The position numbers were made by a program, and so were the translations under genes. A stretch of 64,000 nt of DNA, taken from NCBI GenBank assembly GCA_965208755.1, contig OZ242353.1:3866341-3930340 (forward strand), written 5' to 3'. The stretch comes from Candidatus Multivorans sp. GTDB lineage: Bacteria; Acidobacteriota; Thermoanaerobaculia; Multivoradales; Multivoraceae. Positions 53,694-64,000 of the stretch are shown here, piece by piece. Position 1 is the first letter of the stretch, and the number at the start of each line of letters is the position of its first letter. The notes beneath the pieces were generated by a model. It searched no databases. It saw only the letters and a list, made by a program, of their open reading frames with translations, and was not told where the DNA came from.

Positions 53694-54107
53694 ATGGTTG
53701 ACACCGTGTCTCGGGAACGCCGGAGCGAGATTATGGCCCTCGTCAGGTCGAAGGACATGAAGCCCGAGATGGCGGTGCGCCGGATCACTCATGCGATGGG
53801 CTACCGCTACAGGCTTCACCGGAAGGAACTGCCAGGAAGGCCGGATCTGGTGTTTCCGGCCCGCAGCAAGGTGATCTTCGTTCACGGTTGTTTCTGGCAC
53901 CAGCACTCACCTTGCAAGAATGTGCGAGAACCGAAGTCGAACCGAGACTACTGGCTCCCGAAGCTCAGACGGAACGTCGAGCGAGATGTGGAGAACCAAG
54001 CGCGGTTGTCCGAGATCGGTTGGCGAGCGTTGGTCCTGTGGGAGTGCGAGGTGCGAAGTCGGAACGATACAGCCCACCGCATCCGAGAGTTCTTGGAGCG
54101 TCCATGA
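53694..54107 (+). CDS. vsr: Very-short-patch repair endonuclease
   Basis: LVRSKDMKPEMAVRR...FVHGCFWHQHSPCK...WECE, canonical Vsr. Confidence 0.85.
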   Translation: MVDTVSRERRSEIMALVRSKDMKPEMAVRRITHAMGYRYRLHRKELPGRPDLVFPARSKVIFVHGCFWHQHSPCKNVREPKSNRDYWLPKLRRNVERDVENQARLSEIGWRALVLWECEVRSRNDTAHRIREFLERP

Positions 54108-54283
54108 GGTGTCGGGACGAGCCGAGGTCCAAGCGCCCCTGCGGGCGTCCGAAGCGTCTGAGGCCGGAGTTTCCCGATCCGACGCGACGAGGGACGGTCT
54201 GGGAGAACAACGTTTGCCAACGCGAAGGCTGCTTGGTCCGAGCCTCCGGCCTAGGAGCCGACTGAAGGCCTGACGACACGCTG

Positions 54284-54622
54284 GTGGACCTCCAAGGCTG
54301 GCTTCCCGTGATCGGCGTCGCCCTCGCAGCGACCGCTCTGCTCACTAGAGTCGTCTGGCGGCGAGCTGAGGCGCAGGGAACCAAGAGGGCGCTTCGCTTG
54401 GAGATCTTCGAGCAGGCCAGAACCGGGGAACTCCGAGGGCCGGCGCTTCGCCACAAGGCCCAAGATGCTGGCTTGGCGAAGCGAGAGGTTCAGTTCGTCG
54501 TCGAGTACCGAGGGAAGCAGAACAAACTCCTGAATCACGGGTACGGGGCTTCGAGCGAGCAAGACGAAGCCGAAGCTGCAAGACTCACGCAGGAGTTTGA
54601 GCGCATCCTGCTAGGCGACTGA
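54284..54622 (+). CDS. Small hypothetical protein with an N-terminal TM helix
   Basis: GTG start. WLPVIGVALAATALL TM segment, the rest is charged and helical. Weak call. Confidence 0.3.
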   Translation: MDLQGWLPVIGVALAATALLTRVVWRRAEAQGTKRALRLEIFEQARTGELRGPALRHKAQDAGLAKREVQFVVEYRGKQNKLLNHGYGASSEQDEAEAARLTQEFERILLGD

Positions 54623-54721
54623 GCCCGCCTGGCTGGCTTCCGATGCAGGCCCACGGCGTCCCGTGACCGGGGACCGGAGGAGAGGGTTGGCGCCGGGCCT
54701 TGTTGGTCGCCATGCACAGTG

Positions 54722-54925
54722 GGCACGAAACGCCCCGCCTATTCGCCGAGCGCCGGGAGCGACCCGGCGCCTGGTGTCGACTGTTGTATTCGGCAGGAGA
54801 CCCGGCTCGCAGGCCCACGGCGCGACGACAACCAACCACGAGAAGCTACCGCGCCGCCGATTGCGCGTCAAACGAACCGGCCAGCGGTCGGGCAGGGGCC
54901 GAGACGGATGCCGAGGTGAGACTAG
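54722..54925. repeat. ~190-bp repeat family copy A, ending in a truncated 3-codon ORF with RBS
   Basis: Shares GGGAGCGACCC...GGCAGG..CCGGCTCGCAGGCCCAC.GCGC..GACGAC.AACCAACGAG...GAGACGATG with copy B at 58975-59165. About 70-75% identity over 150+ nt. Confidence 0.55.
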
Positions 54926-54942
54926 GGCTTGGCCGCGCCTGG

Positions 54943-55641
54943 TCAGGGGAGGGCGGCCGTCGCCGCCGCGACCATCAAGCCCGCCAGACCGATCTCCAGC
55001 ACCTTTCCCGCGGCCCAGTTGATCGCGGCGATAGCGAACCCCGCCGGCCTGGACAGCCGGAACACGGCGGCAGCGCCCAGGCCGAGCAGAAGAAAGGACC
55101 AGACGAAGACGAAGGAGCTGACCATCAGGTCGAGAATGGCGCCGGGCGCGATGGCGGCCACGACCGCCAGCGCGTCCAGCCCTGAGCCCGCTTCTCTGTT
55201 CAGGACGTTCCGTTGAAACTCAAGGAGGCCGCCGACCTGGGTGGTTCTCAAGGCCGAGCGGACCACTAGCCCCACGGCGCTGATCAGGCTGACGTGGAGC
55301 GCCAGCGACAGGCACTGTTCGATGCTCGCCCGACCCTTCAGGGCCGCCGCCAGGAGCCGGAGCACGACGGTCTCGAACAACAGCGCGAGCGGGATGGCCG
55401 CGAGGAAGAACGAGACCATCCCGTATGGAATCTCGAGAGAGTCACCGATGCTCTCCATCGCATCGCCGAACCACCAGGCAGTCAGCAGACCGGCCAGGAG
55501 CACCAGGAAGATGCCCAATGCCAGGCCTGCGCCCCACGGATGGTGCTCGCGGATGACGACGAAGCTCTTCCGCGGAGCGGTGAAGATCCAGATCAGGGCT
55601 TTGAACCAGAGGTGACGGCTGGCCTCCGGTCGCTCGCCCAT
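54943..55641 (-). CDS. Yip1-like polytopic membrane protein
   Basis: N-terminus WFKALIWIFTAPRKSF then about 5 TM helices. Paralog of 55687-56466 (NAWLKALIGIFTSPRQSFEII). Confidence 0.55.
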   Translation of the reverse strand: MGERPEASRHLWFKALIWIFTAPRKSFVVIREHHPWGAGLALGIFLVLLAGLLTAWWFGDAMESIGDSLEIPYGMVSFFLAAIPLALLFETVVLRLLAAALKGRASIEQCLSLALHVSLISAVGLVVRSALRTTQVGGLLEFQRNVLNREAGSGLDALAVVAAIAPGAILDLMVSSFVFVWSFLLLGLGAAAVFRLSRPAGFAIAAINWAAGKVLEIGLAGLMVAAATAALP

Positions 55642-55686
55642 TTGGGGGACTGTATCGACTGGGGATCGACCTGCGCGATGGCCGCG

Positions 55687-56466
55687 TCAGGTCGGCATGA
55701 GTCGGGCTGCCAGGCCAATCGTCGCGGCCGCGAAGGCCGTCGTCGTTGCCCAGTAGATGGCGGCCAGCAGCCAGGCCTTGCGCTGTGGGACCTCGAACGC
55801 CGCGGCGGCGCCTAGGGCGAGCAACGCGAGAAACCAGACCGTGAACGGATTGATGCTCGCGTAAACGACGTTGAGCGTCGCGTTGTCGCCGGCCAGCAGC
55901 AGGTCGAGTCCCATCGGCGCCTGGAGGTCCAGTTGCGATCGGATCGCGTCGGTGCCACGGACGTGGAGGAGAAGGAAGTTGGCCCAGCTCTTGAGGTGGG
56001 TGATCACGGCCAGATGGACCATCAGGGAGAGGGACTGGACAAATCGGGGCCGTCCCTTGAGTGCTACCGCCAACAGCCACACGAAGACGGTCTGAACCGC
56101 GAGTCCGAGGGCCAGTTGCAGGGGTCCGGTGGCCATCGAAACCCATCTCGCCGCCGCGGCCGTCTGCTCGATCTGCGCCATCATGGCGTCGACCTGTTCC
56201 GGGTTGCCCGGCATCCGCTCCGTCAACTGGTTCCGCATCGCCTGGAGACCCAGAGGCGCCGAGGACATCGCCAGGGCGGCGCTTCCGGCTACGAGAAGAA
56301 GCAGCGGCGCGAGCCATGGGTTGCGGCGCCGGATGATCTCGAAACTCTGCCGCGGCGACGTGAAGATCCCGATGAGCGCCTTGAGCCAGGCGTTCCGGCC
56401 CTGTGAGTGGTCGCCGGTGGCTTTGATGTTGCGTTCGTCGTGGATGCTGCCTGCGTGCTCGGTCAT
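55687..56466 (-). CDS. Yip1-like polytopic membrane protein
   Basis: Internal Met start MTEHAGS at 56466 in an ATGA overlap with the ABC ATPase stop. The track ORF extends to 56604 inside the ATPase gene. Confidence 0.55.
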   Translation of the reverse strand: MTEHAGSIHDERNIKATGDHSQGRNAWLKALIGIFTSPRQSFEIIRRRNPWLAPLLLLVAGSAALAMSSAPLGLQAMRNQLTERMPGNPEQVDAMMAQIEQTAAAARWVSMATGPLQLALGLAVQTVFVWLLAVALKGRPRFVQSLSLMVHLAVITHLKSWANFLLLHVRGTDAIRSQLDLQAPMGLDLLLAGDNATLNVVYASINPFTVWFLALLALGAAAAFEVPQRKAWLLAAIYWATTTAFAAATIGLAARLMPT

Positions 56467-57248
56467 GTCGCGCTCCTGTTGCCGATCCAGGAGAGGCGGG
56501 AGAACCTCTCGCGCCTGGAGATACTGAGAATGAGGTTCTCGAGCCGCCCGGCGCCGTCTTCTCCCTCGGCGGCTGGCAGTTCGCGGAACTCCTCCCGGGA
56601 GCACGACAGGAGGACCTTGCCGTCCCTGATGACGGCGATGTGGGTCGACACGCGCTCGACGTAGTCGAGCATGTGGGAAGTGAGGAAGACGGCTGCGCCC
56701 TGCTCCGCCATCTGCTGCAGGATCGACATGACGGTCCGGGCGCTCAGGGCGTCCATACCCTCGAACGGCTCGTCGAGGAACAGGACCCGCGGCGCGTGAA
56801 GCGTCGCTGCCGCGAGGCGGATCTTCTTCCTCATCCCGTGCGAGTAGGTCGTGATCGGCCGTTTGGCTGCGCCTTCGAGGTCGAAGACCGAGAGCGCTTC
56901 GTCGGTCCGCTGCCCGGCGTCCTCGCGGCTCAGGCCGTAGATGCGGGCATAGGAGAGCAGCAGCTCTTCGCCGGTCAGGCTCTCGAACATCACGCTGTGG
57001 TCGGGGACGATGCCGAGTTGTTGCTTGAGTTCCGTGTCGTTGATGTCCATCGGCCTGCCCAGCAGGCGGACCGTGCCGCTCGTGGGATTGAGCACCCCGG
57101 TCAGCATGGACCAGGTCGTCGTCTTTCCGGCCCCGTTGGGACCGACGAAGCCCAGGATCTGTCCCTCCCGGACGTCCAGGTCGACGCCGTCGACGACGAC
57201 GTTGCCTCCGTACGACCGGGTCAGGTTCTCTGCCTTGATTACTTCCAT
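56463..57248 (-). CDS. ABC transporter ATP-binding protein
   Basis: Walker A GPNGAGKTT, signature-like YSHGMRKK, Walker B VLFLDEP. Confidence 0.85.
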   Translation of the reverse strand: MEVIKAENLTRSYGGNVVVDGVDLDVREGQILGFVGPNGAGKTTTWSMLTGVLNPTSGTVRLLGRPMDINDTELKQQLGIVPDHSVMFESLTGEELLLSYARIYGLSREDAGQRTDEALSVFDLEGAAKRPITTYSHGMRKKIRLAAATLHAPRVLFLDEPFEGMDALSARTVMSILQQMAEQGAAVFLTSHMLDYVERVSTHIAVIRDGKVLLSCSREEFRELPAAEGEDGAGRLENLILSISRRERFSRLSWIGNRSAT

Positions 57249-57300
57249 CCGTGAGGTGTTCCTTGTGGTTGCAGGGGCGGTAGAGGTAGGGGCAGGGGTT

Positions 57301-58887
57301 CTAGTGGGAGGAGTCCTTGAGCAGGAGTTCGCGGCCGCGGGCCGCCAGCATCCGTCTCTGCCTTTGGCGAGACGCGTAGGCGGCCGCTGCGGCGAGGAGG
57401 AGTACGCCGACCGCGATGAGCGCGGCTGTCAGCGGCGTCACGCGCTGGCGTTCCAGGAACGCCCAGAGGAGAAAGGAGAGGGCGCCCGGCAGGCCGACGA
57501 GGTGTGCGGCCACCAGGGTGGCGCCGAGCCTGGCGCCGTCGGGATCGTGCAGGAACCCCTCGTTGCGTTGAGGCCAGCGAAGCTGAATCAGGCCGTACGT
57601 TGCGGTGGCCATGAGGAATCCCGCGAGCATCAGGCAGACGGCGACGAAGAAGAACGGCCAGCCGAACCACTCAAGCGGCGTCAGTCCCAGGATGAACGCG
57701 ATGACGAAGACGATGACCGCGTTCATCGCACGGCCGGGTGCGCTGAAGATCCGCCGGACCGGGAACGGCAGCGTTAGCGACTCCCGCCATACGTGGCAGG
57801 TCGGGGGCTGCTTTCCGATGCGGAACTCGTGCAGAAAGATGGCGAAGAGAGCCGCCGGCCCTACCGCGAAGCCGCCTGCGGTGGGCACCAGGACGAGGGA
57901 GGTGCCCAAGACCAACGCGAGAACCAGACGTGCCGGTTTGAGACGCAGGAGGCACTCGCTCTCGACCAGCGTCAGGACGCCCGCCGGAGTGAGATGCTTC
58001 GCCTTGCGGAGCAGCCGGGCCACCGGCAGGCTCCCGGAAGCCGCGCGCCGGTCGCCGCCAGGACGCTCCAGGTAGCCGCGGAGCAGCAGCCGGTTCTCCA
58101 GTACGACCAGGGCGCCGAGAATCGCGAACAGGCTGCCGAGTCTCGCCAGATTCGACGCCGAAAGCCCCGGTTGGTGGACGATGCCGGCGACCAGCCCGGG
58201 CGGCGTGTAGCCGAGCCCGCCGAGAACGGCCGACTCCTCGATCGCCCGAGTGAGCCCTTCGGAAGCGATCTCTCCGCCGAAGGCCAGCACCCCGAGCATG
58301 ATCGCGCCCTGGCACGCGGCAATGATCGCCACGATGGCCAGGGCGCCGAGCTTGCCTTCGACCGGCCGGTTGACGAGAAGCGACAGGATCGCCGCGGTAC
58401 GGCCGAAGATCCACACCAGGCCCAGGATGGCGAGCAGGGTGATCGGCGCTCCGCTGACGCCTCCCGATCTCATGACGGCGAGGTAGACGCCGGCGGGACC
58501 GAGGACGGGGAGCCAGTACCCGATCGTGCTCAGGGCAAACCGGAGACCGTAGAGGTCCCGGAAGCTGACTGGCAGCCGCAGCAGATCCTCCAGGTCGAGC
58601 AGAAAGATCACGGGCGCTCGAAGCAGCACCTGGGCGAGCAACGCGACCGCCGTCACGGAACAGGCGATCAGGCTCAGGAGGTTTCTCCGCAGGACCTCGC
58701 TCTCGATGGCGAAGATCGCCGGAAGCAGCCCCAGGGTCGCGACAGTCGCGAACGCGAGGAACAGGACGGCAACGAAGATCGCCACCGCCAGCGGCTGCTT
58801 GCTCCGCCGGACCGCGTCCGGCAAGGCCAGCCGCGCGAGCGTCAGCAGCAGATCGGCCCGGCTACCCGGGTGCGTGAACGTCGCCAT
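57301..58887 (-). CDS. Large polytopic membrane protein, putative ABC-2-type permease partner
   Basis: 528 aa with at least 12 hydrophobic segments. Lies directly upstream of the ABC ATPase on the same strand. Confidence 0.55.
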   Translation of the reverse strand: MATFTHPGSRADLLLTLARLALPDAVRRSKQPLAVAIFVAVLFLAFATVATLGLLPAIFAIESEVLRRNLLSLIACSVTAVALLAQVLLRAPVIFLLDLEDLLRLPVSFRDLYGLRFALSTIGYWLPVLGPAGVYLAVMRSGGVSGAPITLLAILGLVWIFGRTAAILSLLVNRPVEGKLGALAIVAIIAACQGAIMLGVLAFGGEIASEGLTRAIEESAVLGGLGYTPPGLVAGIVHQPGLSASNLARLGSLFAILGALVVLENRLLLRGYLERPGGDRRAASGSLPVARLLRKAKHLTPAGVLTLVESECLLRLKPARLVLALVLGTSLVLVPTAGGFAVGPAALFAIFLHEFRIGKQPPTCHVWRESLTLPFPVRRIFSAPGRAMNAVIVFVIAFILGLTPLEWFGWPFFFVAVCLMLAGFLMATATYGLIQLRWPQRNEGFLHDPDGARLGATLVAAHLVGLPGALSFLLWAFLERQRVTPLTAALIAVGVLLLAAAAAYASRQRQRRMLAARGRELLLKDSSH

Positions 58888-58974
58888 CGAGTCCTGGGTG
58901 TCGTTCTAGCCGGCTCTGAGGAAAGGTGGGCCGGCACCTGGACTGGTGGCGGGCCGAATCGGCCGCTCTGCGCA

Positions 58975-59165
58975 GGAGAAACGAGACCCCCCGCCGACTT
59001 GCCTGACGCAGGGAGCGACCCTGAGCCCAGGGGCGACGGCTAGGTCTGGCAGGGGGTCCGGCTCGCAGGCCCACTGCGCCTCTGACGACCAACGAGTGGA
59101 CGCTAGCGCGCCGGGATAGCGCCCGTCAAACATCTCTGCGGGGAGGAGAGACGATGGCAACGAAG
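58975..59165. repeat. ~190-bp repeat family copy B, ending in RBS+ATG of a 31-codon ORF (59154-59249, +)
   Basis: See copy A. Ends GGGGAGGAGAGACGATG. Confidence 0.55.
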
Positions 59166-59262
59166 AGGACGCGGGAGGTCGACCTGACCGGGGCCGCTCG
59201 CGGGGGATCTCCGTTGCCATCGAACTCTCTCTACGCCGATCTACCGTGAGTGAGGGCGGGGC

Positions 59263-59550
59263 CTACTTGCAGAAGACCAACGCAACAGGTGCGTACGCTC
59301 CGATAATGGCGGCCCCGACACCGCCGGTGGCGGCGCCGGTTCCCATGGCAACGAAGCTGAAGGCGAGCACCGCGCCGACGCAGCTCCAGTTCGTTCCGCC
59401 GGTTGCCGTCGCGAGCAACGCTTCCCCGGTCTGCTCGGCCTCGACGGGGATGCTGGCCGTCGGGACGGCGGGTCCACTGGCGCCCGTGGCCGGGGCCAGA
59501 GCGAACAGAAACGTGAGAAGGAGGGTTGCGGCTACTGCTTTCTTGGACAT
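59263..59550 (-). CDS. Small secreted peptide with a double-glycine-like motif and a Gly-rich two-Cys C-terminus (bacteriocin-like precursor)
   Basis: N-terminus MSKKAVAATLLLTFLFALAPATGASG is Sec-like. An internal VEAEQTGEALLATATGG|TNWSC... resembles a GG-leader. A GTG start at VEAEQ would give an 18-aa GG-leader. Core TNWSCVGAVLAFSFVAMGTGAATGGVGAAIIGAYAPVALVFCK has 2 Cys. Confidence 0.5.
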   Translation of the reverse strand: MSKKAVAATLLLTFLFALAPATGASGPAVPTASIPVEAEQTGEALLATATGGTNWSCVGAVLAFSFVAMGTGAATGGVGAAIIGAYAPVALVFCK

Positions 59551-59619
59551 GTCGTTTCCTTTCAGTGATTCAGAGTGTCTTCGGTGTAGGGGTCTGATTG
59601 GTTTCTGGTAGGACCGGAT

Positions 59620-59979
59620 TCAGAAGAACATGGCGCAGGCCATGCCGGCGCCTGCCAGCGCCAGACCAGGGCCTGCACCGACGCCGGTCAACGCGAGAGC
59701 GAAGCCAGCGCCAGTGGCGGCTCCGCACAGGAAGTCGGAAGTGGGGCCTGCCCCTGCTGTTCGAGCCAGAACCCGGTCGGACAGGGACTGCGGCCCGAGG
59801 CCGGGGGCAGGCTGGAGGGCGGACACGTCTGGGGCCGGGGTTGGGACCGGCCCGAGATCCCAGGTGGCCCTCAGCGTGGCCGCGCCTGGGTCCTGCGCCT
59901 CGCCGGCGGTTGGTGTCGCCATAGCGGCGCCGGCAAGGAACAGGAAGAGGACGGAAAGAAAGGCAATGCGTAGTTTCAT
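59620..59979 (-). CDS. Small secreted peptide, leader-conserved paralog 1 (Gly/Ala-rich hydrophobic two-Cys core)
   Basis: MKLRIAFLSVLFLFLAGAAMATPTAGEA...ATWDLGPV is a conserved leader. Core ...SDFLCGAATGAGFALALTGVGAGPGLALAGAGMACAMFF. RBS AAGGAGCC. Confidence 0.5.
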   Translation of the reverse strand: MKLRIAFLSVLFLFLAGAAMATPTAGEAQDPGAATLRATWDLGPVPTPAPDVSALQPAPGLGPQSLSDRVLARTAGAGPTSDFLCGAATGAGFALALTGVGAGPGLALAGAGMACAMFF

Positions 59980-60043
59980 CGAGAGTTGGCTCCTTCGAGG
60001 TCTATTGGGTTGTGCGTGAGACGGACGCGTAGTTCGCTGTGGC

Positions 60044-60217
60044 TCAGACGGGGAAGTAGCAGGTAAGGGCGATCAGGCCGCCCAGGCCGGGAGCGATGGT
60101 GTCGACCATTGCCGCTACCACCATGCAAGCCCAGGAGACGGCCCAGCCGGACCCGCCGGTGACCGTCGCCAGGCCTGCCTCGGGCAGGTTCGCAATCAGG
60201 ATTGAAGTGGCGTTCAT
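60044..60217 (-). CDS. Double-glycine-leader bacteriocin-like precursor peptide, 57 aa (not in the ORF track)
   Basis: Hand translation: MNATSILIANLPEAGLATVTGG|SGWAVSWACMVVAAMVDTIAPGLGGLIALTCYFPV. RBS AAGGAGA 6 nt upstream of the ATG at 60217. Leader fits the L..E.L..V.GG consensus. Core is Gly-rich with 2 Cys. Confidence 0.6.
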   Translation of the reverse strand: MNATSILIANLPEAGLATVTGGSGWAVSWACMVVAAMVDTIAPGLGGLIALTCYFPV

Positions 60218-60257
60218 TTCGCGTCTCCTTGAGGCTCTTGGTTGTCAGGGCACGGCA

Positions 60258-60569
60258 CTAGAAGAGGATGGGAGGAAGGCACTTGTCGGGACCGGGCCAC
60301 GGGCTCGGGAACGGCCAAGGAACCGGGAAGGGGCGGGGCGAGGGAGGAAAGGGAAAGCTGTCGCAGGGCCAGGGGTAGTACACAGCCGTCCGTGTCGGCG
60401 CATCCGTCCGAAGGACGTAGCCGTCGGGGGCGGCAACCGGCCCGAGATCCCAAGCGGCCACCAGCGAGATGTCGTCCGGGCCCCGCGCCTCGCCGGCGGT
60501 CGGCGTCGCCATGGCCGCGCCGGTGAGAAACAGGAAGAGGAGGGAAAGGAAGGTAGTGCGTAGTTTCAT
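60258..60569 (-). CDS. Small secreted peptide, leader-conserved paralog 2 (Pro/Trp/Phe-rich two-Cys core)
   Basis: MKLRTTFLSLLFLFLTGAAMATPTAGEA...AAWDLGPV leader is near-identical to paralog 1, including about 50 nt upstream. Core YYPWPCDSFPFPPSPRPFPVPWPFPSPWPGPDKCLPPILF. ATGA overlap with the C39 gene stop. Confidence 0.5.
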   Translation of the reverse strand: MKLRTTFLSLLFLFLTGAAMATPTAGEARGPDDISLVAAWDLGPVAAPDGYVLRTDAPTRTAVYYPWPCDSFPFPPSPRPFPVPWPFPSPWPGPDKCLPPILF

Positions 60570-61186
60570 TGAGAGCTATCTCCTTCAAGGGTTGTGGGTT
60601 GGGGTGAAACGGACGGCATCGTGGCCGTCCGGGAAATCGGTGGCGGGCCGCTGGTGAAGGACAGAACGACGCCGTCCCAGGATCGTTCGAAGGTCCTGGA
60701 ACTCATGCGCAGCCGCCCGAGGGAGGGGTCGTCGATGACGAGTTCGTCGCCGGCGCTGCGAATGACGACGAAGTGATCGCCGTGCACGTGCGCGATCGCG
60801 GGGAGCGGGATGTCGTGGAGCCGCTGGACCGGTAGCCGGAGGCCCTGGCTCGTCACGCCTCGCTTTTCCGCGGCCTTCTTGAGCGCGAGCAGGCTGGTGC
60901 CGTCCGGGCCGGTTCCGGTGGCGAGCTCGAGCTCGGCGAGGGTCGTATCCTGGATGCCCCAGTGATCGAGGACCATCTTCAGGGCCGCCGGGCCGCAGTC
61001 GGCGCGTCTCTGCTGGCGAACGATCTCGCCTGGGGCCGGCGCCGATGGGTCGAGCGTGGCGGCCCAGGCCAGCCGGTCCATGGTCGGCCCCAGGGCCCGG
61101 GCCGCGACCGTCACGAGACCGGCCGCGAGCAGCAGACCGGCAGCGGCCGCGTGCGGTGGGCGAATCCGGAATCGCTCAGAGTGCAT
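60566..61186 (-). CDS. Standalone peptidase C39 (bacteriocin-processing cysteine peptidase) domain protein with an N-terminal TM or signal anchor
   Basis: Internal Met start MHSERFRIRPPHAAAAGLLLAAGLVTVAARALG. QQRRADCGPAALKMVLDHWG (catalytic Cys) ... LPAIAHVHGDHFVVI (catalytic His). No ABC domains are fused. The track ORF extends to 61336 overlapping the upstream gene. Confidence 0.7.
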   Translation of the reverse strand: MHSERFRIRPPHAAAAGLLLAAGLVTVAARALGPTMDRLAWAATLDPSAPAPGEIVRQQRRADCGPAALKMVLDHWGIQDTTLAELELATGTGPDGTSLLALKKAAEKRGVTSQGLRLPVQRLHDIPLPAIAHVHGDHFVVIRSAGDELVIDDPSLGRLRMSSRTFERSWDGVVLSFTSGPPPISRTATMPSVSPQPTTLEGDSSQ

Positions 61187-61682
61187 CGCCGCCGGATTCC
61201 AGAAAGGAGCGCCAGGCGATCTCTGGACGCTCTCCGGTGGTGACCGCGAGGATCCGGGACTGGCCGTCGACCAGGAACACCAGCGGTACATGGACGACGC
61301 CGAATCGCTTCGAGACGGCGCCGTCCGGATCGGCAATGGCCGCGTGGACGCCGTCGCCGTCGAGTTCGGGCGAATCCGAGCCGGCGACGACCGCGATCAG
61401 GTCGAAGGTCGGACCCTCCGTCCGTGCCATGCGGCGCAGGGCGGTGATGGTGCGGTCGCAGTTGCCGCAGCCGGCCCTGGCGAAGGTCACGACCCGCAGC
61501 CGGCCGGGAGCGGCCGGCAGGGCTTCACCGTCCGCGAGGCCCGGCAGCGCGGGGAACAGCGCGCCGACTTCGGGGCGCTGGGCCTGCCGCGCGCGGATCC
61601 CGGATTCGAACCAGATCAGACCTCCGAAGGGGGCGAGGACGGCCACGACGACGGTGGCGATGGCAAGTCGGCGGCGGTTCAT
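61176..61682 (-). CDS. Membrane-anchored thioredoxin-fold thiol-disulfide oxidoreductase (TlpA/ResA-like, CxxC)
   Basis: Internal Met start MNRRRLAIATVVVAVLAPF (TM anchor). CGNC active-site motif in ARAGCGNCDRT. Overlaps the C39 gene by 11 nt. Confidence 0.65.
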   Translation of the reverse strand: MNRRRLAIATVVVAVLAPFGGLIWFESGIRARQAQRPEVGALFPALPGLADGEALPAAPGRLRVVTFARAGCGNCDRTITALRRMARTEGPTFDLIAVVAGSDSPELDGDGVHAAIADPDGAVSKRFGVVHVPLVFLVDGQSRILAVTTGERPEIAWRSFLESGGDAL

Positions 61683-62028
61683 CGCCGCCCTCCCGCGAAG
61701 CCGGTTGCCCGCCGGCGGATCGCCGGTCTCGTCCGGCTGTGCAGCATGGAGACCAGTGGTCCGGACCGCTCGCCGAGCATGCGGAACGCGCGCGTCAGGC
61801 CGGCTTCGAGGGCGCTGGCCGGAGGATGGGAGAGGCGGGGACTCCATTCGCGCAGCAGATGACGCGCGCCTGGAGCGGTTGGCGGTTGGCGGAGGTTCGG
61901 AGGGAGGTTCGGGGACGTCATCGTCCAGCTCCAGTCGTTCCGTTCGTGACGGCCGGACGGCCGTTGTCGGGTTGTCGTTGAGGTCGAGGGCGGTCGTTCA
62001 GCGGCCGCGTGTATCGACTAAGACGCAA

Positions 62029-62066
62029 AAGGGCCTTCGGAACCCGTAACGGTTCCGAAGGCCCTT
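62029..62066 (-). terminator. Rho-independent terminator downstream of the SNF2 helicase gene
   Basis: Perfect 16-bp stem AAGGGCCTTCGGAACC / GGTTCCGAAGGCCCTT with a 6-nt loop. On the minus strand it is followed by UUUUGCGUCUU. Confidence 0.6.
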
Positions 62067-62105
62067 CGATGCAGCCGGCAGGACCGGCCTACTCGGCGCC
62101 CTGCG

Positions 62106-64000
62106 CTAGCTCAGCAGGAGCCGGAGATCGTCGGCAGTGAGATCCCGCAGGGACGATCCGCCGCCTTCGAGGATCGCGTCGGCGATCTGCCGCTTCGATC
62201 GCTGGAGTTCCAGCATCTTCTCTTCCACGGTGTCACGCGCGATCAGGCGATAGGCGAACACAGGCTGGGTCTGGCCGATGCGGTGGGTGCGGTCGATGGC
62301 CTGCGCCTCGACGGCCGGGTTCCACCACGGATCGAGCAGGAAGACGTAACCGGCGGCGGTCAGGTTCAGACCGACGCCGCCCGCCTTCAGGCTGATCAGG
62401 AAGATGTTCGTGTCCGGGTCGTTCTGGAAGTGGTCGACCACCTCGCCGCGGTTCCGGGTCTGGCCGTCGAGGTAGGCGTAGGGGACGGCCTGCTCCTCGA
62501 GGTGGCTCCGCACGTAGGCCAGCAGCGACGTGAACTGGGAGAACACGAGGCACTTGTGGCCCTCGTCGAGCACCTCGGACACCTGCTCGAACAGCGACTC
62601 GAGCTTGGCGCTTCCGGCGTCGTTCCAGGACTCGTCGATGAGCCCCGGGTGGCAGGCGACCTGCCGCAGGCGGAGCAGCGCCTCGAGCACCTGCATCGCC
62701 GATCCGCCGACGCCCTTGTCCTCGACCTGCTTCAGCAGGCTGTCGCGGTAGCCGGCGCGGAGCTGATCGTAGATCTCCTGCTGCTTCGGGTTCAGGGTGC
62801 ACTGCAGGATCTGCTCGGTCTTCTCCGGCAGGTCCGGGAGCACCTCTCGCTTGCTGCGGCGGAGGATGAAGGGCCGCAGACCCTTGGCGACGAGGGCGAG
62901 TTCCTGTTGGCTCGGCGCCCGGCCGCCGGCAAGCACGTCCAGGGCCGGCAGCCGGCCGAGCAGTCCCGGGTTGAGGAACTCGAAGATCGAGCCGAGTTCG
63001 CCCAGGTGGTTCTCGATCGGGGTGCCGGTCAGCGCCAGGCGGTGCTGGCCGTTCAGCAGGCGGCAGGCCTTGGCGGTCTGCGAGGTCGCGTTCTTGATCG
63101 CCTGGGCTTCGTCGAGGATCACGGTGTCGAAGTCGACGGTCGCGAGGTAGCCGATGTCGCGGCGGACGGTGCCGTAGGTCGTGACGACGAGGTCGGCGGA
63201 GTCGACCTCGTCCCGCAGATCCTCGCGGTCGCGACCGGCGTACTCCAGCACCTTGAGGTCCGGCGTGAAGCGGGCGGCCTCGTCGATCCAGTTGTACACC
63301 AGGCTGCGCGGCGCGACGACCAGGTAGGGCAGTTTCGTCGTCCGCGAGGCGGTGCGGTACATGCGAAGCAGCGCCAGCGCCTGGATCGTCTTGCCCAGCC
63401 CCATGTCGTCCGCGAGCACGCCGCCGAGGCCGAACTCGCGCAGGAAGCACAGCCAGCCCAGGCCCAGGCGCTGGTAGGTGCGGAGCGTGCCGACGAAGCT
63501 GCGCGGCTCCTTCTTCGGCTTGATCGACGAGAAAGTGCTCAGCTTCTCGCGCAGCTCGGCGAAGGTCTTGCTGACGTTCACCGGCGGCGTCACGGCCAGG
63601 AGCGCGTCGACCAGCAAGGCCTGCGAGGGCAGGAAGCGCAGTCCCTCGTCGCTCGAGGCCTGCGCAAGCTGACTGAGCGAGCCGTAGTTCTCGACCCAGG
63701 CTGCCGGCAGCAGTCCCTTCGAGCCGTCGTCCAGCTCGACCGATCGCCGCCCCTCCGAGATCGCCGACAGGATCTCCGAGAACTCGATCTGGTCCCCGCC
63801 GAAGTCGATCTGGCCGCTGAGTTCGAACCAGTCGACACCGCTCTCGATACGTAACGCCGGCGGGCTTGGCGGCCGGATCGAGGCGCCGTGGGCTTCCACC
63901 TCCCATCCCTCCGCGAGCAGCGGCTCCGCGACCGCGGGCAGGTCGCGCGGCTCGAGCTCCAGGCTATGGCCGGCCTTGGACGCCACCGGCTTCAGGTCGA
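62106..64000 (-). CDS. SNF2-family DEAD/DEAH-box helicase (RapA/HepA-like), N-terminus outside the window
   Basis: LADDMGLGKTIQALALL (motif I), DEAQAIKN (motif II), helicase C-terminal motifs (QTRNRGEVV...LISLKAGGVGLNLTAA...DPWWNPAVEAQAIDRTHRIGQ). The frame stays open to the window edge beyond the first Met at 63986. Confidence 0.8.
   Translation of the reverse strand, partial: DLKPVASKAGHSLELEPRDLPAVAEPLLAEGWEVEAHGASIRPPSPPALRIESGVDWFELSGQIDFGGDQIEFSEILSAISEGRRSVELDDGSKGLLPAAWVENYGSLSQLAQASSDEGLRFLPSQALLVDALLAVTPPVNVSKTFAELREKLSTFSSIKPKKEPRSFVGTLRTYQRLGLGWLCFLREFGLGGVLADDMGLGKTIQALALLRMYRTASRTTKLPYLVVAPRSLVYNWIDEAARFTPDLKVLEYAGRDREDLRDEVDSADLVVTTYGTVRRDIGYLATVDFDTVILDEAQAIKNATSQTAKACRLLNGQHRLALTGTPIENHLGELGSIFEFLNPGLLGRLPALDVLAGGRAPSQQELALVAKGLRPFILRRSKREVLPDLPEKTEQILQCTLNPKQQEIYDQLRAGYRDSLLKQVEDKGVGGSAMQVLEALLRLRQVACHPGLIDESWNDAGSAKLESLFEQVSEVLDEGHKCLVFSQFTSLLAYVRSHLEEQAVPYAYLDGQTRNRGEVVDHFQNDPDTNIFLISLKAGGVGLNLTAAGYVFLLDPWWNPAVEAQAIDRTHRIGQTQPVFAYRLIARDTVEEKMLELQRSKRQIADAILEGGGSSLRDLTADDLRLLLS

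What the first reader, a model, noticed from the sequence alone, without database searches (positions are those of the whole stretch)
59263..61682. Compact bacteriocin/RiPP-like operon: TM-anchored thioredoxin, standalone C39 peptidase, four small two-Cys peptides
Six tightly packed minus-strand genes, with ATGA or 11-nt overlaps at three of the five junctions. They encode a TM-anchored CxxC thioredoxin-fold protein, a C39 peptidase domain that is not fused to an ABC exporter, and four small peptides. Each peptide has exactly two Cys near its C-terminus. One is a textbook double-glycine-leader peptide. The C39 protein and the thioredoxin each have a single N-terminal hydrophobic anchor, so their catalytic domains are predicted to face the periplasm. 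Three of the four peptides carry Sec-type signal peptides. Taken together this suggests a maturation route of Sec export, then periplasmic C39 cleavage, then disulfide formation. That differs from the canonical cytoplasmic C39-ABC (LagD/ComA-type) processing. I do not recognise this arrangement from described bacteriocin systems.
Basis: partly seen in the sequence, partly recalled or inferred. Interest (0 to 1): 0.85.

Follow-up and report, generated by a model that had tools for sequence, protein, structure and literature searches.

The report
Sec-exported double-glycine peptides, periplasmic C39 protease
This operon appears to make small disulfide-stapled, bacteriocin-like peptides by an undescribed route: the peptides leave the cytoplasm through the general Sec pathway and only then lose a classical double-glycine leader to a membrane-anchored C39 protease working beside a thioredoxin-like enzyme, and the same gene set recurs in several Gram-negative phyla.

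Summary
The six genes are real and sit at the stated coordinates.

- **C39 protein:** stand-alone, with all four catalytic residues conserved and one N-terminal hydrophobic segment.
- **Thioredoxin partner:** belongs to the extracytoplasmic ResA/CcmG/TlpA group. Four independent fusion proteins (TM–thioredoxin–C39, with no second TM) place both domains on the same side of the membrane.
- **Peptides:** pepC and pepD, and about 100 peptides in 80 related loci, carry a Sec-type signal peptide, then a canonical double-glycine leader (hydrophobic at −4, −7, −12). The core is about 43 aa, with one Cys near each end.
- **Longer operon:** a promoter plus conserved RNA-like leader, an ABC-2-fold permease, a DrrA-like ATPase and two YknW/Yip1 proteins follow. 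These most likely provide self-protection or export.
- **Distribution:** the module occurs in Acidobacteriota, Bacteroidota/Ignavibacteria, Poribacteria and others. The peptide cassette is hypervariable between conserved flanks.

I found no description of this route; FapD is the only periplasmic C39 precedent. Three things are unexplained: pepB has no signal peptide, the route across the outer membrane is unknown, and the role of Pro-rich pepA is unknown. Nothing has been tested experimentally.

The parts
61679..61921 (-). orfU: probable small basic protein (80 aa). Its stop overlaps the trx start (ATGA). Function unknown.
   Evidence: The frame is open in 38 loci, with the conserved core RL.xPP...LEAxLxxAFxMLGxxSxPLVSML. 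pN/pS is 0.67, against 1.04 and 1.10 in the other two frames, which carry 29 and 9 stops. The ATGA overlap is kept in 35 of 39 loci. No Pfam hit.
61176..61682 (-). Membrane-anchored thioredoxin-fold thiol-disulfide oxidoreductase (168 aa). One N-terminal TM at residues 6-24; CGNC at residues 72-75.
   Evidence: CxxC and the cis-Pro are invariant in 13 homologues. The profile hits ResA at 1.2e-20, and also StoA, CcmG/DsbE, TlpA, DsbF and Etrx. As a single sequence it scores below the Pfam cut-off (Redoxin 19.4 vs 26.6 bits). The start codon is conserved.
60566..61186 (-). Stand-alone C39 cysteine peptidase (206 aa). It has an N-terminal hydrophobic anchor or signal (residues 11-29), and the catalytic domain is predicted to be periplasmic.
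   Evidence: PF03412 at E 1.5e-31. Q58, C64, H138 and D153 are invariant. It matches LahT150, the ComA peptidase domain and PCAT1 in the PDB. The positive-inside rule holds in 71 of 77 homologues. It overlaps trx by 11 nt.
60258..60569 (-). pepA: secreted Pro/aromatic-rich peptide (103 aa). It has a signal peptide, no GG site and two Cys flanking a 27-aa Pro-rich loop. Role unknown.
   Evidence: ATGA overlap with C39 and a strong RBS. It is present as the first gene after C39 in L001-L039. pN/pS is 0.40-0.64.
60044..60217 (-). pepB: 57-aa precursor with a 22-aa canonical GG leader (I-15, L-12, L-7, V-4, GG) and no signal peptide. The core is 35 aa with Cys9 and Cys31.
   Evidence: There are 10 orthologues. 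Leader pN/pS is 0.44 and core pN/pS is 1.13, with both Cys invariant.
59620..59979 (-). pepC: 119-aa precursor made of a signal peptide (MKLR...AMA), a pro-region, the leader SLSDRVLARTAGA/G and a 41-42-aa Gly-rich hydrophobic core with two Cys.
   Evidence: Core pN/pS is 0.24. The same core and GG-proximal leader are attached to two unrelated signal-peptide/pro regions in different loci.
59263..59550 (-). pepD: 95-aa precursor made of a signal peptide (MSKK...), a pro-region, the leader GEALLATATGG and a 43-aa core TNWSC...VFCK with Cys5 and Cys42.
   Evidence: The AF2 model shows a leader helix ending at GG, then a helix-turn-helix hairpin at residues 55-75 and 78-94, with core pLDDT 72-80. 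Other annotators have called it 'hypothetical protein'.
58905..59141 (-). Conserved non-coding element, copy 1. It starts with a sigma-70-like promoter (TTGACG, 17 nt, TAGCGT), followed by a structured leader of about 170 nt directly upstream of the permease gene. The apparent 'orf104' here is not a gene.
   Evidence: Nearly invariant across loci whose flanking proteins are 65-77% identical. In the orf104 frame pN and pS are both about 0.055. A 32-mer matches exactly in 26 loci. Predicted closing stem with wobble-compatible changes. No Rfam match.
57301..58887 (-). mem528: polytopic membrane protein (about 10-12 TM segments) with an ABC-2 (type V exporter) transmembrane fold. It is the presumed permease, or the cognate immunity component.
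56463..57248 (-). ABC ATPase of the DrrA / lantibiotic-protection / PmtA type (261 aa).
   Evidence: ABC_tran at 4.3e-30. DrrA at 5.4e-64, galliderm_ABC at 1.3e-41 and PmtA at 1.7e-31. It is 91-99% identical across the syntenic loci.
55687..56466 (-). Yip1/YknW-like membrane protein 1. The likely start is ATG at 56466, which overlaps the ATPase stop (ATGA).
   Evidence: Pfam Yip1 at 1.2e-12. NCBIfam YknW_fam at 5.2e-20, 71.9 bits, below the cut-off of 110.
54943..55641 (-). Yip1/YknW-like membrane protein 2.
   Evidence: Pfam Yip1 at 6.1e-10. YknW_fam at 6.6e-07.
54685..54877 (-). Conserved non-coding element, copy 2: a direct, diverged repeat of copy 1 with its own TTGACG-N17-TAGCTT box. No conserved ORF follows it.
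   Evidence: nhmmer 85 bits, E 2e-25, and present in about 30 loci. The downstream ORF 53965-54456 is not conserved.
62031..62068 (-). Terminator-like hairpin after the upstream SNF2 helicase gene. It marks the upstream boundary of the unit.
   Evidence: The sequence reads GGGCCTTCGGAACC...GGTTCCGAAGGCCC followed by TTTT.

Best explanation
This is a Sec-dependent variant of double-glycine-leader peptide (class-II bacteriocin/microcin-like) maturation.

**Proposed sequence of steps**
1. The precursors (pepC, pepD and their many relatives) are exported by Sec through a normal N-terminal signal peptide.
2. In the periplasm they still carry a roughly 15-residue amphipathic GG/GA leader, which presumably keeps them inactive.
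3. A membrane-anchored (or signal-cleaved) stand-alone C39 cysteine peptidase, with its catalytic domain facing the periplasm, cuts after the GG/GA motif.
4. The adjacent membrane-anchored ResA/TlpA-type thioredoxin forms or proof-reads a single disulfide. This disulfide ties the N- and C-terminal ends of a core of about 43 residues, usually a Gly-rich hydrophobic helical hairpin.
5. The downstream genes have their own promoter and a conserved leader. They encode an ABC-2-fold permease, a DrrA-like ATPase and two YknW/Yip1 proteins. These most likely expel the membrane-active peptides from the producer's inner membrane, giving self-immunity and perhaps release.

**Status of each step**
- Shown by sequence: the gene set, the catalytic residues, the precursor architecture, its conservation and the cassette hypervariability.
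- Inferred: topology, the cleavage site, the direction of the redox step, antimicrobial activity, and the immunity/export role.
For: **C39 enzyme**
- PF03412 at E 1.5e-31; Q58, C64, H138 and D153 invariant.
- Homology to the peptidase domains of LahT150, ComA and PCAT1.

**Stand-alone, anchored family**
- 114 of the best 150 cluster representatives are 260 aa or shorter, and 95 of those have an N-terminal hydrophobic segment.
- The positive-inside rule holds in 71 of 77 homologues.

**Thioredoxin partner**
- The profile hits only extracytoplasmic ResA/StoA/CcmG/TlpA/DsbF-type proteins, best E 1.2e-20.
- CxxC and the cis-Pro are invariant.
- Distant homologues carry DsbA/PDI-like CPHC or CGHC motifs.
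- Four independent TM-Trx-C39 fusions have a single TM. One of them sits next to a signal peptide + IEDTHLQQIVGG + two-Cys peptide and a Yip1 gene.

**Substrates**
- 86 GG-type peptides were found in 45 Acidobacteriota loci, and 69 of them have a signal-peptide-like N-terminus.
- The core has a median length of 43 aa, and 78 of 86 cores have exactly two Cys.
- The first Cys lies 4-12 residues after the GG site and the last lies 0-5 residues from the C-terminus.
- Leader positions −12, −7 and −4 are LIVMF in 74-100%, 68-86% and 55-67% of sequences. The search rule did not impose the −12 and −7 positions.
- 26 of 41 distant loci (Bacteroidota, Ignavibacteria, other Acidobacteriota) have such a peptide, and 23 of 41 have a CxxC ORF upstream.
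- The background rate for the combined features is 0.18%.
- The pepC core is found on two unrelated signal peptides, always with the same GG-proximal leader.
- The post-signal-peptide part of three peptides gives weak Bacteriocin_IIc hits, E 0.002-0.03.
- The AF2 model of pepD shows a leader helix followed by a helical hairpin.

**Toxin/immunity logic**
- The flanking genes are 90-99% identical while the peptides are 45-100% identical.
- The permease paralogue M2 co-occurs with the F6+F7 peptide pair in 6 of 6 loci and in 0 of 37 others.
- mem528 has an ABC-2 fold, and the hits include the PSM exporter subunit PmtD.
- The ATPase is of the DrrA / lantibiotic-protection / PmtA type.
- The Yip1 proteins are YknW-like. 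YknWXYZ protects Bacillus from the Sec-exported 42-aa disulfide toxin SDP (PMC4887032).

**Precedent**
- FapD is a C39 peptidase shown to be active in the periplasm (PMC5557850).
Against: - **No experiments.** Topology rests on a hydropathy/positive-inside heuristic and on family analogy. SignalP and DeepTMHMM were not available.
- **pepB does not fit.** It is the cleanest GG peptide, yet it has no signal peptide and no way to extend its ORF. A purely Sec-first model therefore does not explain it.
- **pepA has no GG site.**
- **Export is incomplete.** No outer-membrane or membrane-fusion component is encoded, so an extracellular bacteriocin role is not fully accounted for.
- **Redox direction is open.** ResA/CcmG/TlpA relatives are classically reductants, so 'oxidase' is not established. 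The window protein has CGNC, not CPHC.
- **The mem528 model is only moderate.** pLDDT is 64, and Foldseek gave no significant PDB hit.
- **Bacteriocin_IIc hits are sub-threshold.**
- **The M2-peptide association** does not correct for shared ancestry among loci.
Confidence: 0.62

Rival explanations
1. Split PCAT. The C39 domain faces the cytoplasm and removes GG leaders there. The adjacent ABC transporter (mem528 + ATPase + Yip1) then exports the peptides, and the thioredoxin acts outside, as PedC does in pediocin-type systems.
For: pepB has a classical GG leader and no signal peptide. An ABC transporter is always encoded next door. The C39 sequence is closest to PCAT peptidase domains: NHLM_micro_ABC1 at 2.2e-23 and LahT150.
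Against: - Most substrates carry a conserved Sec-type signal peptide upstream of the GG leader. Cytoplasmic cleavage would remove it and make it pointless.
- The positive-inside bias predicts a C-out orientation.
- Four TM-Trx-C39 fusions with a single TM put C39 on the same side as a ResA/TlpA-type domain, a family known only outside the cytoplasm.
- The transporter has an ABC-2 fold, not the type IV exporter fold of PCATs.
Confidence: 0.12
2. The maturation route is as proposed, but the products are not antimicrobial. They could be envelope or structural subunits, membrane-integrity factors or signalling peptides, by analogy with the FapD (amyloid) and FilB (pilus) periplasmic C39 systems.
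For: The only characterised or curated periplasmic C39 systems are fibre systems: FapD (PMC5557850) and NCBIfam FilB. No outer-membrane export gene is present. One related core (L081) is hydrophilic. No cognate small immunity gene of the usual type was found.
Against: - The cassette is hypervariable between conserved flanks, with multiple paralogous peptides per locus and a pepB core pN/pS of about 1.1.
- A peptide pair is co-inherited with a dedicated permease paralogue.
- The cores are hydrophobic, glycine-zipper-like and of class-II bacteriocin size, with weak Bacteriocin_IIc similarity.
- The ABC-2/YknW-type module is typical of peptide self-protection.
- The FapD and FilB models score far below their cut-offs.
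Confidence: 0.2
3. The small ORFs are chance reading frames in GC-rich DNA, and the C39 and thioredoxin genes act on unrelated substrates.
For: GC content is about 66-70%, so long spurious ORFs are common in this window. 'orf104' and 'orf163' did turn out not to be genes.
Against: - All four peptide ORFs have strong ribosome-binding sites.
- Orthologues in 10-15 close loci have only in-frame indels and pN/pS of 0.24-0.6.
- The Cys and GG positions are invariant.
- The same architecture appears in phyla with 39-52% GC.
- The background rate is 0.18%.
Confidence: 0.02

Closest known systems
Peptidase-containing ABC transporters (PCAT/AMS: ComA, LagD, PCAT1, LahT) with their GG-leader peptides
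   Same: The C39 fold is the same, with the Gln/Cys/His/Asp catalytic set. The substrates have the canonical leader: hydrophobic at −4, −7 and −12 (and −15), acidic at −8/−10, and GG/GA/GS at −2/−1.
   Different: Here the peptidase is a separate protein of about 200 aa with its own N-terminal anchor, predicted to face the periplasm. It is not fused to a type IV ABC exporter. Most substrates carry a Sec signal peptide in front of the GG leader. The neighbouring transporter has an ABC-2 fold.
FapD, the periplasmic C39 peptidase of the Pseudomonas Fap amyloid system (PMC5557850)
   Same: It is a stand-alone C39 enzyme that is exported and shown to act in the periplasm on Sec-exported proteins.
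   Different: - The Fap substrates are amyloid subunits without canonical GG leaders, and the cleavage target is still unknown.
- There is no thioredoxin partner, no small Cys-Cys peptides and no ABC/Yip1 module.
- The NCBIfam FapD model scores 44 bits against a cut-off of 330.
Pediocin PA-1 / bactofencin / glycocin clusters: PCAT plus a membrane-anchored thioredoxin-like accessory protein such as PedC (PMC5465099, PMC12457901)
   Same: GG-leader peptides with one or two disulfides are matured with the help of a dedicated extracytoplasmic thioredoxin-fold protein encoded next to the C39 function.
   Different: These are Gram-positive systems. Leader removal is cytoplasmic, on the PCAT, and there is no Sec signal peptide. 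The thioredoxin here belongs to the ResA/TlpA branch.
Bacillus SDP toxin with the YknWXYZ protection transporter (PMC4887032)
   Same: The toxin precursor is exported by Sec and then trimmed outside the cell to a peptide of about 42 aa with one disulfide. Protection comes from an ABC transporter that needs a Yip1-family protein (YknW). The Yip1 proteins here match the YknW model at E 5e-20.
   Different: SDP is processed by SdpA/SdpB, not by a C39 peptidase. YknYZ is a MacB-type transporter with a membrane-fusion protein, which is absent here. The YknW score is below the family cut-off.
Class II microcins of Enterobacterales such as MccV (PMC10233263, PMC9746304)
   Same: They are Gram-negative GG-leader peptides, some with a disulfide, and often Gly-rich and membrane-active.
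   Different: Microcins are exported in one step by PCAT-MFP-TolC with cytoplasmic leader cleavage. None is described with a Sec signal peptide.
ABC-2 (type V) peptide self-protection exporters: PmtABCD, LanFEG, DrrAB
   Same: The ATPase matches the DrrA, lantibiotic-protection and PmtA models. The mem528 model matches ABC-2 transmembrane domains, including PmtD and Rv1217c.
   Different: mem528 has no sequence-level family membership. It is about 520 aa with no detectable internal duplication, and it always comes with Yip1 partners.

Membership tests
Peptidase C39 (bacteriocin-processing cysteine peptidase domain) | Match to Pfam PF03412 above the gathering score | tested here: met
   109.4 bits against a cut-off of 22, E 1.5e-31.
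Peptidase C39 (bacteriocin-processing cysteine peptidase domain) | Catalytic Cys and His (plus Asp) and the oxyanion-hole Gln are conserved | tested here: met
   Q58, C64, H138 and D153 are invariant in 19 sequences, including a PCAT fragment. They align with LahT150 and ComA.
Peptidase C39 (bacteriocin-processing cysteine peptidase domain) | Cleaves after the GG/GA/GS of a double-glycine leader | not testable with these tools
   The neighbouring peptides carry canonical leaders, but cleavage was not observed.
PCAT / AMS transporter | C39 domain fused N-terminally to ABC transmembrane and nucleotide-binding domains | tested here: not met
   The protein is 206 aa and has only the C39 domain. 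114 of the best 150 relatives are 260 aa or shorter. There is no second C39 or PCAT in the window.
FapD-type periplasmic C39 (NCBIfam NF058616) | Score above the equivalog cut-off, and a fapA-F operon context | tested here: not met
   44.3 bits against a cut-off of 330. There are no fap genes nearby.
FapD-type periplasmic C39 (NCBIfam NF058616) | Catalytic domain located in the periplasm | tested here: inconclusive
   Predicted from the positive-inside bias (71 of 77) and from the single-TM Trx-C39 fusions. No dedicated predictor or experiment was available.
ResA/TlpA/CcmG-type extracytoplasmic thiol-disulfide oxidoreductases (thioredoxin fold) | CxxC active site, cis-Pro loop, N-terminal membrane anchor, and family-level sequence match | tested here: met
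   C72, C75 and P133 are invariant. The profile hits ResA at 1.2e-20 and 115 PDB thioredoxin-fold chains. There is a TM at residues 6-24. The window sequence on its own is below the Pfam cut-offs.
ResA/TlpA/CcmG-type extracytoplasmic thiol-disulfide oxidoreductases (thioredoxin fold) | Direction of the redox reaction (oxidase, isomerase or reductase) | not testable with these tools
   The motif is CGNC here and CPHC, CGHC or CSHC in distant homologues. This is only suggestive.
Class II double-glycine-leader bacteriocins / class II microcins | N-terminal leader with the GG consensus, removed to give an unmodified active core | tested here: met
   The leader consensus is met. No modification enzyme is encoded.
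Class II double-glycine-leader bacteriocins / class II microcins | Sequence membership (Pfam Bacteriocin_IIc, TIGR01847/TIGR03949) | tested here: inconclusive
   Three related peptides hit Bacteriocin_IIc at E 0.002-0.03, below the cut-off. The window peptides give no hit.
Class II double-glycine-leader bacteriocins / class II microcins | Export and processing by a dedicated PCAT, with the leader at the extreme N-terminus | tested here: not met
   In most precursors a Sec-type signal peptide precedes the leader. No PCAT is present.
Class II double-glycine-leader bacteriocins / class II microcins | Antimicrobial activity with a cognate immunity function | not testable with these tools
   The evidence is indirect only: cassette hypervariability and co-inheritance of peptides with a permease paralogue.
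YknWXYZ-type protection transporter | YknW (Yip1) protein above the NCBIfam cut-off, together with a MacB-type permease and a membrane-fusion protein | tested here: not met
   YknW_fam scores 71.9 bits against a cut-off of 110. There is no FtsX/MacB permease or MFP. The permease has an ABC-2 fold.
ABC-2 (type V) exporter | DrrA-like ATPase together with a permease of ABC-2 fold | tested here: met

The most novel reading that the evidence does not exclude
This is the founding example of a widespread, undescribed class of Gram-negative peptide toxins. At least 226 loci occur in species-representative genomes, in Acidobacteriota, Bacteroidota/Ignavibacteria, Poribacteria and Latescibacterota.

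The defining features would be:
- a bipartite 'Sec signal peptide + double-glycine leader';
- removal of that leader outside the cytoplasm by a dedicated periplasmic C39 protease, coupled to a dedicated ResA-like disulfide enzyme;
- swappable peptide/permease cassettes;
- an ABC-2/Yip1 immunity pump under the control of a previously unknown structured RNA leader.
Probability: 0.45. Interest if true: 0.85.

Novelty: new variant of a known kind. Interest (0 to 1): 0.74.

Why it matters
**A textbook assumption would change.** C39 'double-glycine' peptidases are taught as cytoplasmic domains of ABC exporters. A conserved family that works in the periplasm on Sec-exported GG peptides would change how such leaders are read in genomes. 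A GG motif after a signal peptide is currently ignored by bacteriocin and RiPP miners such as BAGEL and antiSMASH, whose rules look for PCATs.

**New material for discovery.**
- It would open a large, unexplored reservoir of disulfide-stapled peptides from hard-to-culture phyla, including sponge and coral symbionts.
- It gives a simple mining rule: a TM-anchored C39 next to a TlpA-like CxxC protein, followed by a peptide with a signal peptide, a GG site and a Cys...Cys core.

**Possible tools and open questions.**
- It offers a compact two-enzyme toolkit for making leader-free, disulfide-bonded peptides in the periplasm of Gram-negative hosts.
- It provides canonical substrates for a periplasmic C39 enzyme, which the FapD field still lacks.
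- The cassette structure and the conserved leader RNA are also entry points to how toxin and immunity genes are exchanged and regulated.

Tried and rejected
- **'orf104' (58906-59220) as a seventh gene: rejected.** pN and pS are both about 0.055 in that frame, and the block is conserved at nucleotide level beyond the neighbours' synonymous sites. It is a non-coding element.
- **ORF 53965-54456 after element copy 2: rejected.** It is not conserved in any other locus.
- **Sigma-54 promoter (TGG-N9-TGCA) upstream of trx: rejected.** Only 8 of 39 loci keep it. The conservation there is explained by the orfU reading frame.
- **Rfam scan of 54000-64000 at E ≤ 1:** only two chance hits, none in the element.
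- **mem528 by sequence and Foldseek:**
  - No Pfam or NCBIfam family.
  - The Foldseek PDB search gave nothing significant, best E 0.07.
  - hhalign of the N-half against the C-half found no internal duplication.
- **Finer sub-clustering of the main permease family (M1) against peptide families:** uninformative because of single-linkage chaining. Only the M2/F6+F7 association is reported.
- **Peptide cores against solved structures and NCBIfam:** no meaningful hits.
- **Lipoprotein reading of the alternative pepC signal peptide (ILAC):** rejected, because the Cys is not conserved among orthologues.
- **A longer N-terminus for trx (ATG at 61847):** rejected. Several loci have an in-frame stop upstream, and M/V-NRRR with a Shine-Dalgarno sequence is conserved.
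- **Literature:** eight full-text searches combined C39, periplasm, Sec, double-glycine, TlpA, Yip1, Acidobacteria and sponge. They found FapD, PedC, glycocin and YknW papers, but nothing on Sec + GG precursors or on a C39-thioredoxin periplasmic pair.

Full report
**1. What is in the window**

Between a terminator-like hairpin after an SNF2 helicase gene (62031-62068) and a restriction-modification island, the minus strand carries a compact unit.
- trx, 61176-61682
- C39, 60566-61186
- pepA, 60258-60569
- pepB, 60044-60217
- pepC, 59620-59979
- pepD, 59263-59550

trx and C39 overlap by 11 nt, and C39 and pepA overlap by ATGA. The other three junctions are gaps of 40, 64 and 69 nt, so two of five junctions overlap, not three. 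Each peptide gene has an AAGGAG-type ribosome-binding site. The trx start (MNRRR) is conserved, with a Shine-Dalgarno sequence, in about 45 loci. Some loci have an in-frame stop just upstream.

A third ATGA overlap joins trx to an upstream 80-codon ORF (61679-61921).
- This frame is open in 38 loci.
- It has a conserved core, LEAxLxxAFxMLGxxSxPLVSML.
- Its pN/pS is 0.67, against about 1.05-1.10 for the other two frames, which carry 29 and 9 stops.
- It is probably a seventh gene of unknown function, with no Pfam hit.

**2. The two enzymes**

*C39 peptidase*
- The 206-aa protein matches Pfam Peptidase_C39 at E 1.5e-31. It also matches the solved peptidase domains of LahT150, ComA and PCAT1.
- Gln58, Cys64, His138 and Asp153 are invariant in an alignment of 19 diverse homologues.
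- It has no ABC domains. The 64-kb window holds no second C39 and no other ABC ATPase.
- Of the 90 close homologues, almost all are 170-260 aa.
- In an exhaustive profile search, 114 of the best 150 cluster representatives are 260 aa or shorter. Of those, 95 have an N-terminal hydrophobic segment.

*Thioredoxin-fold protein*
- On its own it scores below the Pfam cut-offs.
- A profile of 13 homologues hits ResA (1.2e-20), StoA, CcmG/DsbE, TlpA, DsbF and pneumococcal Etrx. All of these are extracytoplasmic, anchored thiol-disulfide oxidoreductases; that statement rests on established knowledge of those families.
- The CxxC and the cis-Pro are invariant.
- The motif is CGNC in the window. In many Bacteroidota/Ignavibacteria homologues it is CPHC, the DsbA motif, or CGHC/CSHC. 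This hints at an oxidising or isomerising role but does not prove one.

**3. Topology**

I had no dedicated predictor, so this is inference from three lines.
1. Among 77 stand-alone homologues with an N-terminal hydrophobic segment, 71 have more Lys/Arg on the N-terminal side (mean 4.2 vs 1.8). This is the positive-inside signature of N-in/C-out.
2. The thioredoxin family is known only outside the cytoplasm.
3. Four fusion proteins from separate 50%-identity clusters (P0083, P0307, P0322, P0325) have the order TM, thioredoxin (CPYC/CPHC/CSHC), C39.
   - Each has exactly one TM.
   - The C39 protein's own anchor has been deleted, so these are not frameshift artefacts.
   - Both domains therefore work on the same side of the membrane.
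   - The P0083 fusion sits beside a Yip1 gene and an 86-aa peptide, MKNRIALLFLVLLALF...IEDTHLQQIVGG|VEP...GCQLW...KTC.

**4. The peptides**

*pepD* reads MSKKAVAATLLLTFLFALAPATGASG... (signal peptide) ...GEALLATATGG | TNWSC...VFCK.

*pepC* reads MKLRIAFLSVLFLFLAGAAMA | TP... then ...SLSDRVLARTAGA/G | PTSDFLC...ACAMFF.

A genome scan found 226 relatives of the C39 protein in species-representative genomes, and I examined the best 80 loci. L001-L039 are syntenic loci in Thermoanaerobaculia / 'Ca. Multivorans' / Holophagales MAGs, many from sponges and corals. L042-L047 are a second, paralogous locus in the same genomes.

In the 45 Acidobacteriota loci I found 86 GG-type peptides.
- 69 pass a signal-peptide heuristic.
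- The predicted core has a median of 43 aa (range 33-56).
- 78 of 86 cores have exactly two Cys, and 7 have four.
- The first Cys lies 4-12 residues after the cut and the last lies 0-5 residues from the C-terminus.

The leaders match the classical consensus.
- LIVMF occurs at −12 in 74-100% of sequences, at −7 in 68-86% and at −4 in 55-67%.
- Asp/Glu occurs at −8/−10.
- The −7 and −12 positions were not part of my search rule.
- The paralogous loci give textbook examples such as ILDDQELASVTGG|DGLSC and LLSDEELAAVSGG|KSK..C.

In the 41 more distant loci (Bacteroidota, Ignavibacteria, Poribacteria, Latescibacterota, other Acidobacteriota; 39-64% GC):
- 33 C39 proteins have the hydrophobic N-terminus;
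- 23 have a CxxC ORF immediately upstream;
- 26 have at least one signal peptide + GG + multi-Cys peptide downstream.

Background ORFs in the same loci meet the combined rule in 4 of 2,226 cases.

**5. Are the small ORFs coding?**

Among 10-15 close loci all indels are in frame. Pooled pN/pS values are:

| Peptide | Region | pN/pS |
|---|---|---|
| pepD | core | 0.42 |
| pepC | core | 0.24 |
| pepA | whole | 0.40-0.64 |
| pepB | leader | 0.44 |
| pepB | core | 1.13 |

- Both Cys of the pepB core are invariant despite its high ratio.
- The conserved pepC core, with its GG-proximal leader (SLxDxVLAxTxGxG), is attached to two unrelated signal-peptide/pro regions in different loci.
  - In the window that region is 73% identical to the pepA N-terminus.
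  - This is the modular behaviour expected if the signal peptide and the GG leader serve two separate machines.
- pepD has already been called as 'hypothetical protein' in public MAGs.
- An AF2 model from 23 homologues gives a leader helix ending at the GG, then a helix-turn-helix hairpin (55-75 and 78-94; core pLDDT 72-80). Such a hairpin would bring Cys57 and Cys94 together. The proximity is inferred, because I could not measure coordinates.
- Three related peptides give sub-threshold hits to Pfam Bacteriocin_IIc over the part that follows the signal peptide (E 0.002-0.03).

**6. The unit continues downstream**

Directly after pepD lies a block of about 235 nt (58905-59141) that mimics an ORF ('orf104') but is not one.
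- In that frame pN and pS are both about 0.055, lower than the neighbours' pS of 0.17-0.23.
- It is nearly invariant even between loci whose proteins are 65-77% identical.
- It begins with invariant TTGACG, then a free 17-nt spacer, then TAGCGT, which is a promoter signature.
- A conserved segment of about 170 nt follows, with a predicted closing stem.

Then come four genes.

*mem528*
- It has no sequence family.
- AF2 pLDDT is 64.

*ABC ATPase*
- It matches DrrA at 5.4e-64, the lantibiotic-protection ATPase at 1.3e-41 and PmtA at 1.7e-31.

*Two Yip1 proteins*
- They match the YknW family model at 5e-20 and 7e-7, below the cut-off.
- The first is ATGA-coupled to the ATPase.

The order C39, peptide, permease of about 520 aa, ATPase, Yip1 is kept in Bacteroidota and Ignavibacteria.

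YknWXYZ protects Bacillus from SDP. SDP is itself a Sec-exported precursor trimmed to a 42-aa peptide with one disulfide (PMC4887032).

**7. Cassette behaviour**

Across L001-L015, identities to the window are:

| Gene | Identity |
|---|---|
| SNF2 | 96-98% |
| ABC ATPase | 95-99% |
| C39 | 88-97% |
| mem528 | 43-93% |
| Peptides | 45-100% |

- Whole peptide families are swapped between loci.
- A distinct permease paralogue, M2 (about 31% identical to mem528), is present in exactly the six loci that carry the peptide pair F6 (four-Cys...CPxC...) plus F7 (...KWRCAI...). It is present in none of the other 37.
- These six loci are scattered among backbone lineages. The test is not corrected for phylogeny.

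This is the pattern of toxin genes travelling with cognate protection genes.

**8. How it most likely works**

Shown by sequence:
- the gene set;
- the catalytic residues;
- the signal peptide + GG leader + Cys...Cys precursor design;
- its conservation across phyla;
- the cassette variability.

Inferred:
1. Sec export of the precursors.
2. Periplasmic cleavage after GG/GA by the anchored C39.
3. Formation or proof-reading of an end-to-end disulfide by the ResA-like protein.
4. Partition of the hydrophobic hairpins into membranes.
5. Extraction or expulsion by the ABC-2/Yip1 pump as self-immunity and perhaps release.

I put 0.62 on this chain as a whole.

The main rival is a 'split PCAT' with a cytoplasmic C39. 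It is disfavoured by the signal peptides, the charge bias and the fusions. A non-antimicrobial role for the products remains possible, at about 0.2.

**9. Unexplained**

- pepB has a perfect GG leader (I-15, L-12, L-7, V-4) but no signal peptide, and there is a stop nine codons upstream of its ATG. How it would meet a periplasmic protease is open.
- pepA (Pro/aromatic-rich, two to six Cys, no GG site) is always the first gene after C39 in this lineage and is absent elsewhere. Its role is unknown.
- No outer-membrane or adaptor protein is encoded.

**10. Comparison with what is known, and novelty**

All the parts belong to known families, but the arrangement does not match any described system that I could find.
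- **PCATs:** the protease is fused to the transporter and acts in the cytoplasm.
- **Class II microcins:** export goes through PCAT-MFP-TolC.
- **Pediocin, bactofencin and glycocin clusters:** a thioredoxin-like accessory is combined with a PCAT (PMC5465099, PMC12457901).
- **FapD:** a periplasmic C39, but for amyloid subunits with non-canonical sites and an unknown target (PMC5557850).

No NCBIfam or Pfam model exists for the peptides, mem528 or this C39 subfamily. Eight full-text searches found no paper on Sec + GG precursors. The library covers open-access papers only, so prior description elsewhere cannot be excluded. I rate it a new variant of a known kind, with interest 0.74.

Noticed in passing
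window 58905-59141 (-) and 54685-54877 (-): Two direct copies of a conserved non-coding element bracket the transporter genes. Copy 1 is nearly invariant across about 38 loci, with a 32-mer that matches exactly in 26. Both copies start with TTGACG, a variable 17-nt spacer and TA(G/A)C(G/T)T. A conserved segment of about 150-170 nt follows, with a closing stem GUUGGUCGU/(G)CGACCAAC and an invariant GGG-UCGCU-CCC hairpin. There is no Rfam match. It is a candidate new promoter-plus-structured-leader or small RNA. Copy 2 has no conserved ORF after it.
   Followed up: partly
window 61679-61921 (-): An unannotated 80-codon ORF (orfU) has a stop that overlaps the trx start (ATGA) in 35 of 39 loci. 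It has a conserved core, LEAxLxxAFxMLGxxSxPLVSML, and pN/pS of 0.67 against about 1.05-1.10 in the other frames. It is basic, has no TM segment and gives no Pfam hit. It is a possible regulator or accessory protein of the system.
   Followed up: partly
loci L042-L047 (same genomes as L006, L012, L028, L035): Many of these genomes carry a second, paralogous copy of the whole system, in the order trx-C39-peptide(s)-permease-Yip1-ATPase. Its GG leaders are more canonical (for example ILDDQELASVTGG), and it lacks the conserved RNA-like element.
   Followed up: partly
loci L053 10904-11383, L057 11105-11602: In some Bacteroidota loci a DoxX/MauE-like membrane protein follows the Yip1 gene, with a weak hit to the BT_3928 family (a DoxX + TlpA-like fusion). 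It could be a membrane redox partner that re-oxidises the thioredoxin. No such gene is present in the window.
   Followed up: no
loci L003, L006, L024 (second mem528-like copy): Some loci have a second permease copy that appears fragmented or truncated in tblastn. This may be a decaying immunity gene left behind after a cassette swap.
   Followed up: no
locus L017 8242-9534: A 430-aa ORF that I read by eye as a transposase (not tested against any family model) is inserted in the peptide cassette of one locus. It disrupts the usual order, which is consistent with the cassette being a recombination hot spot.
   Followed up: no
window 51689-53682 (+): A C-5 cytosine DNA methyltransferase (PF00145, E 6.4e-52) and an adjacent ORF with no family lie just beyond the unit on the other strand. 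This is probably a restriction-modification island marking the variable downstream boundary.
   Followed up: no
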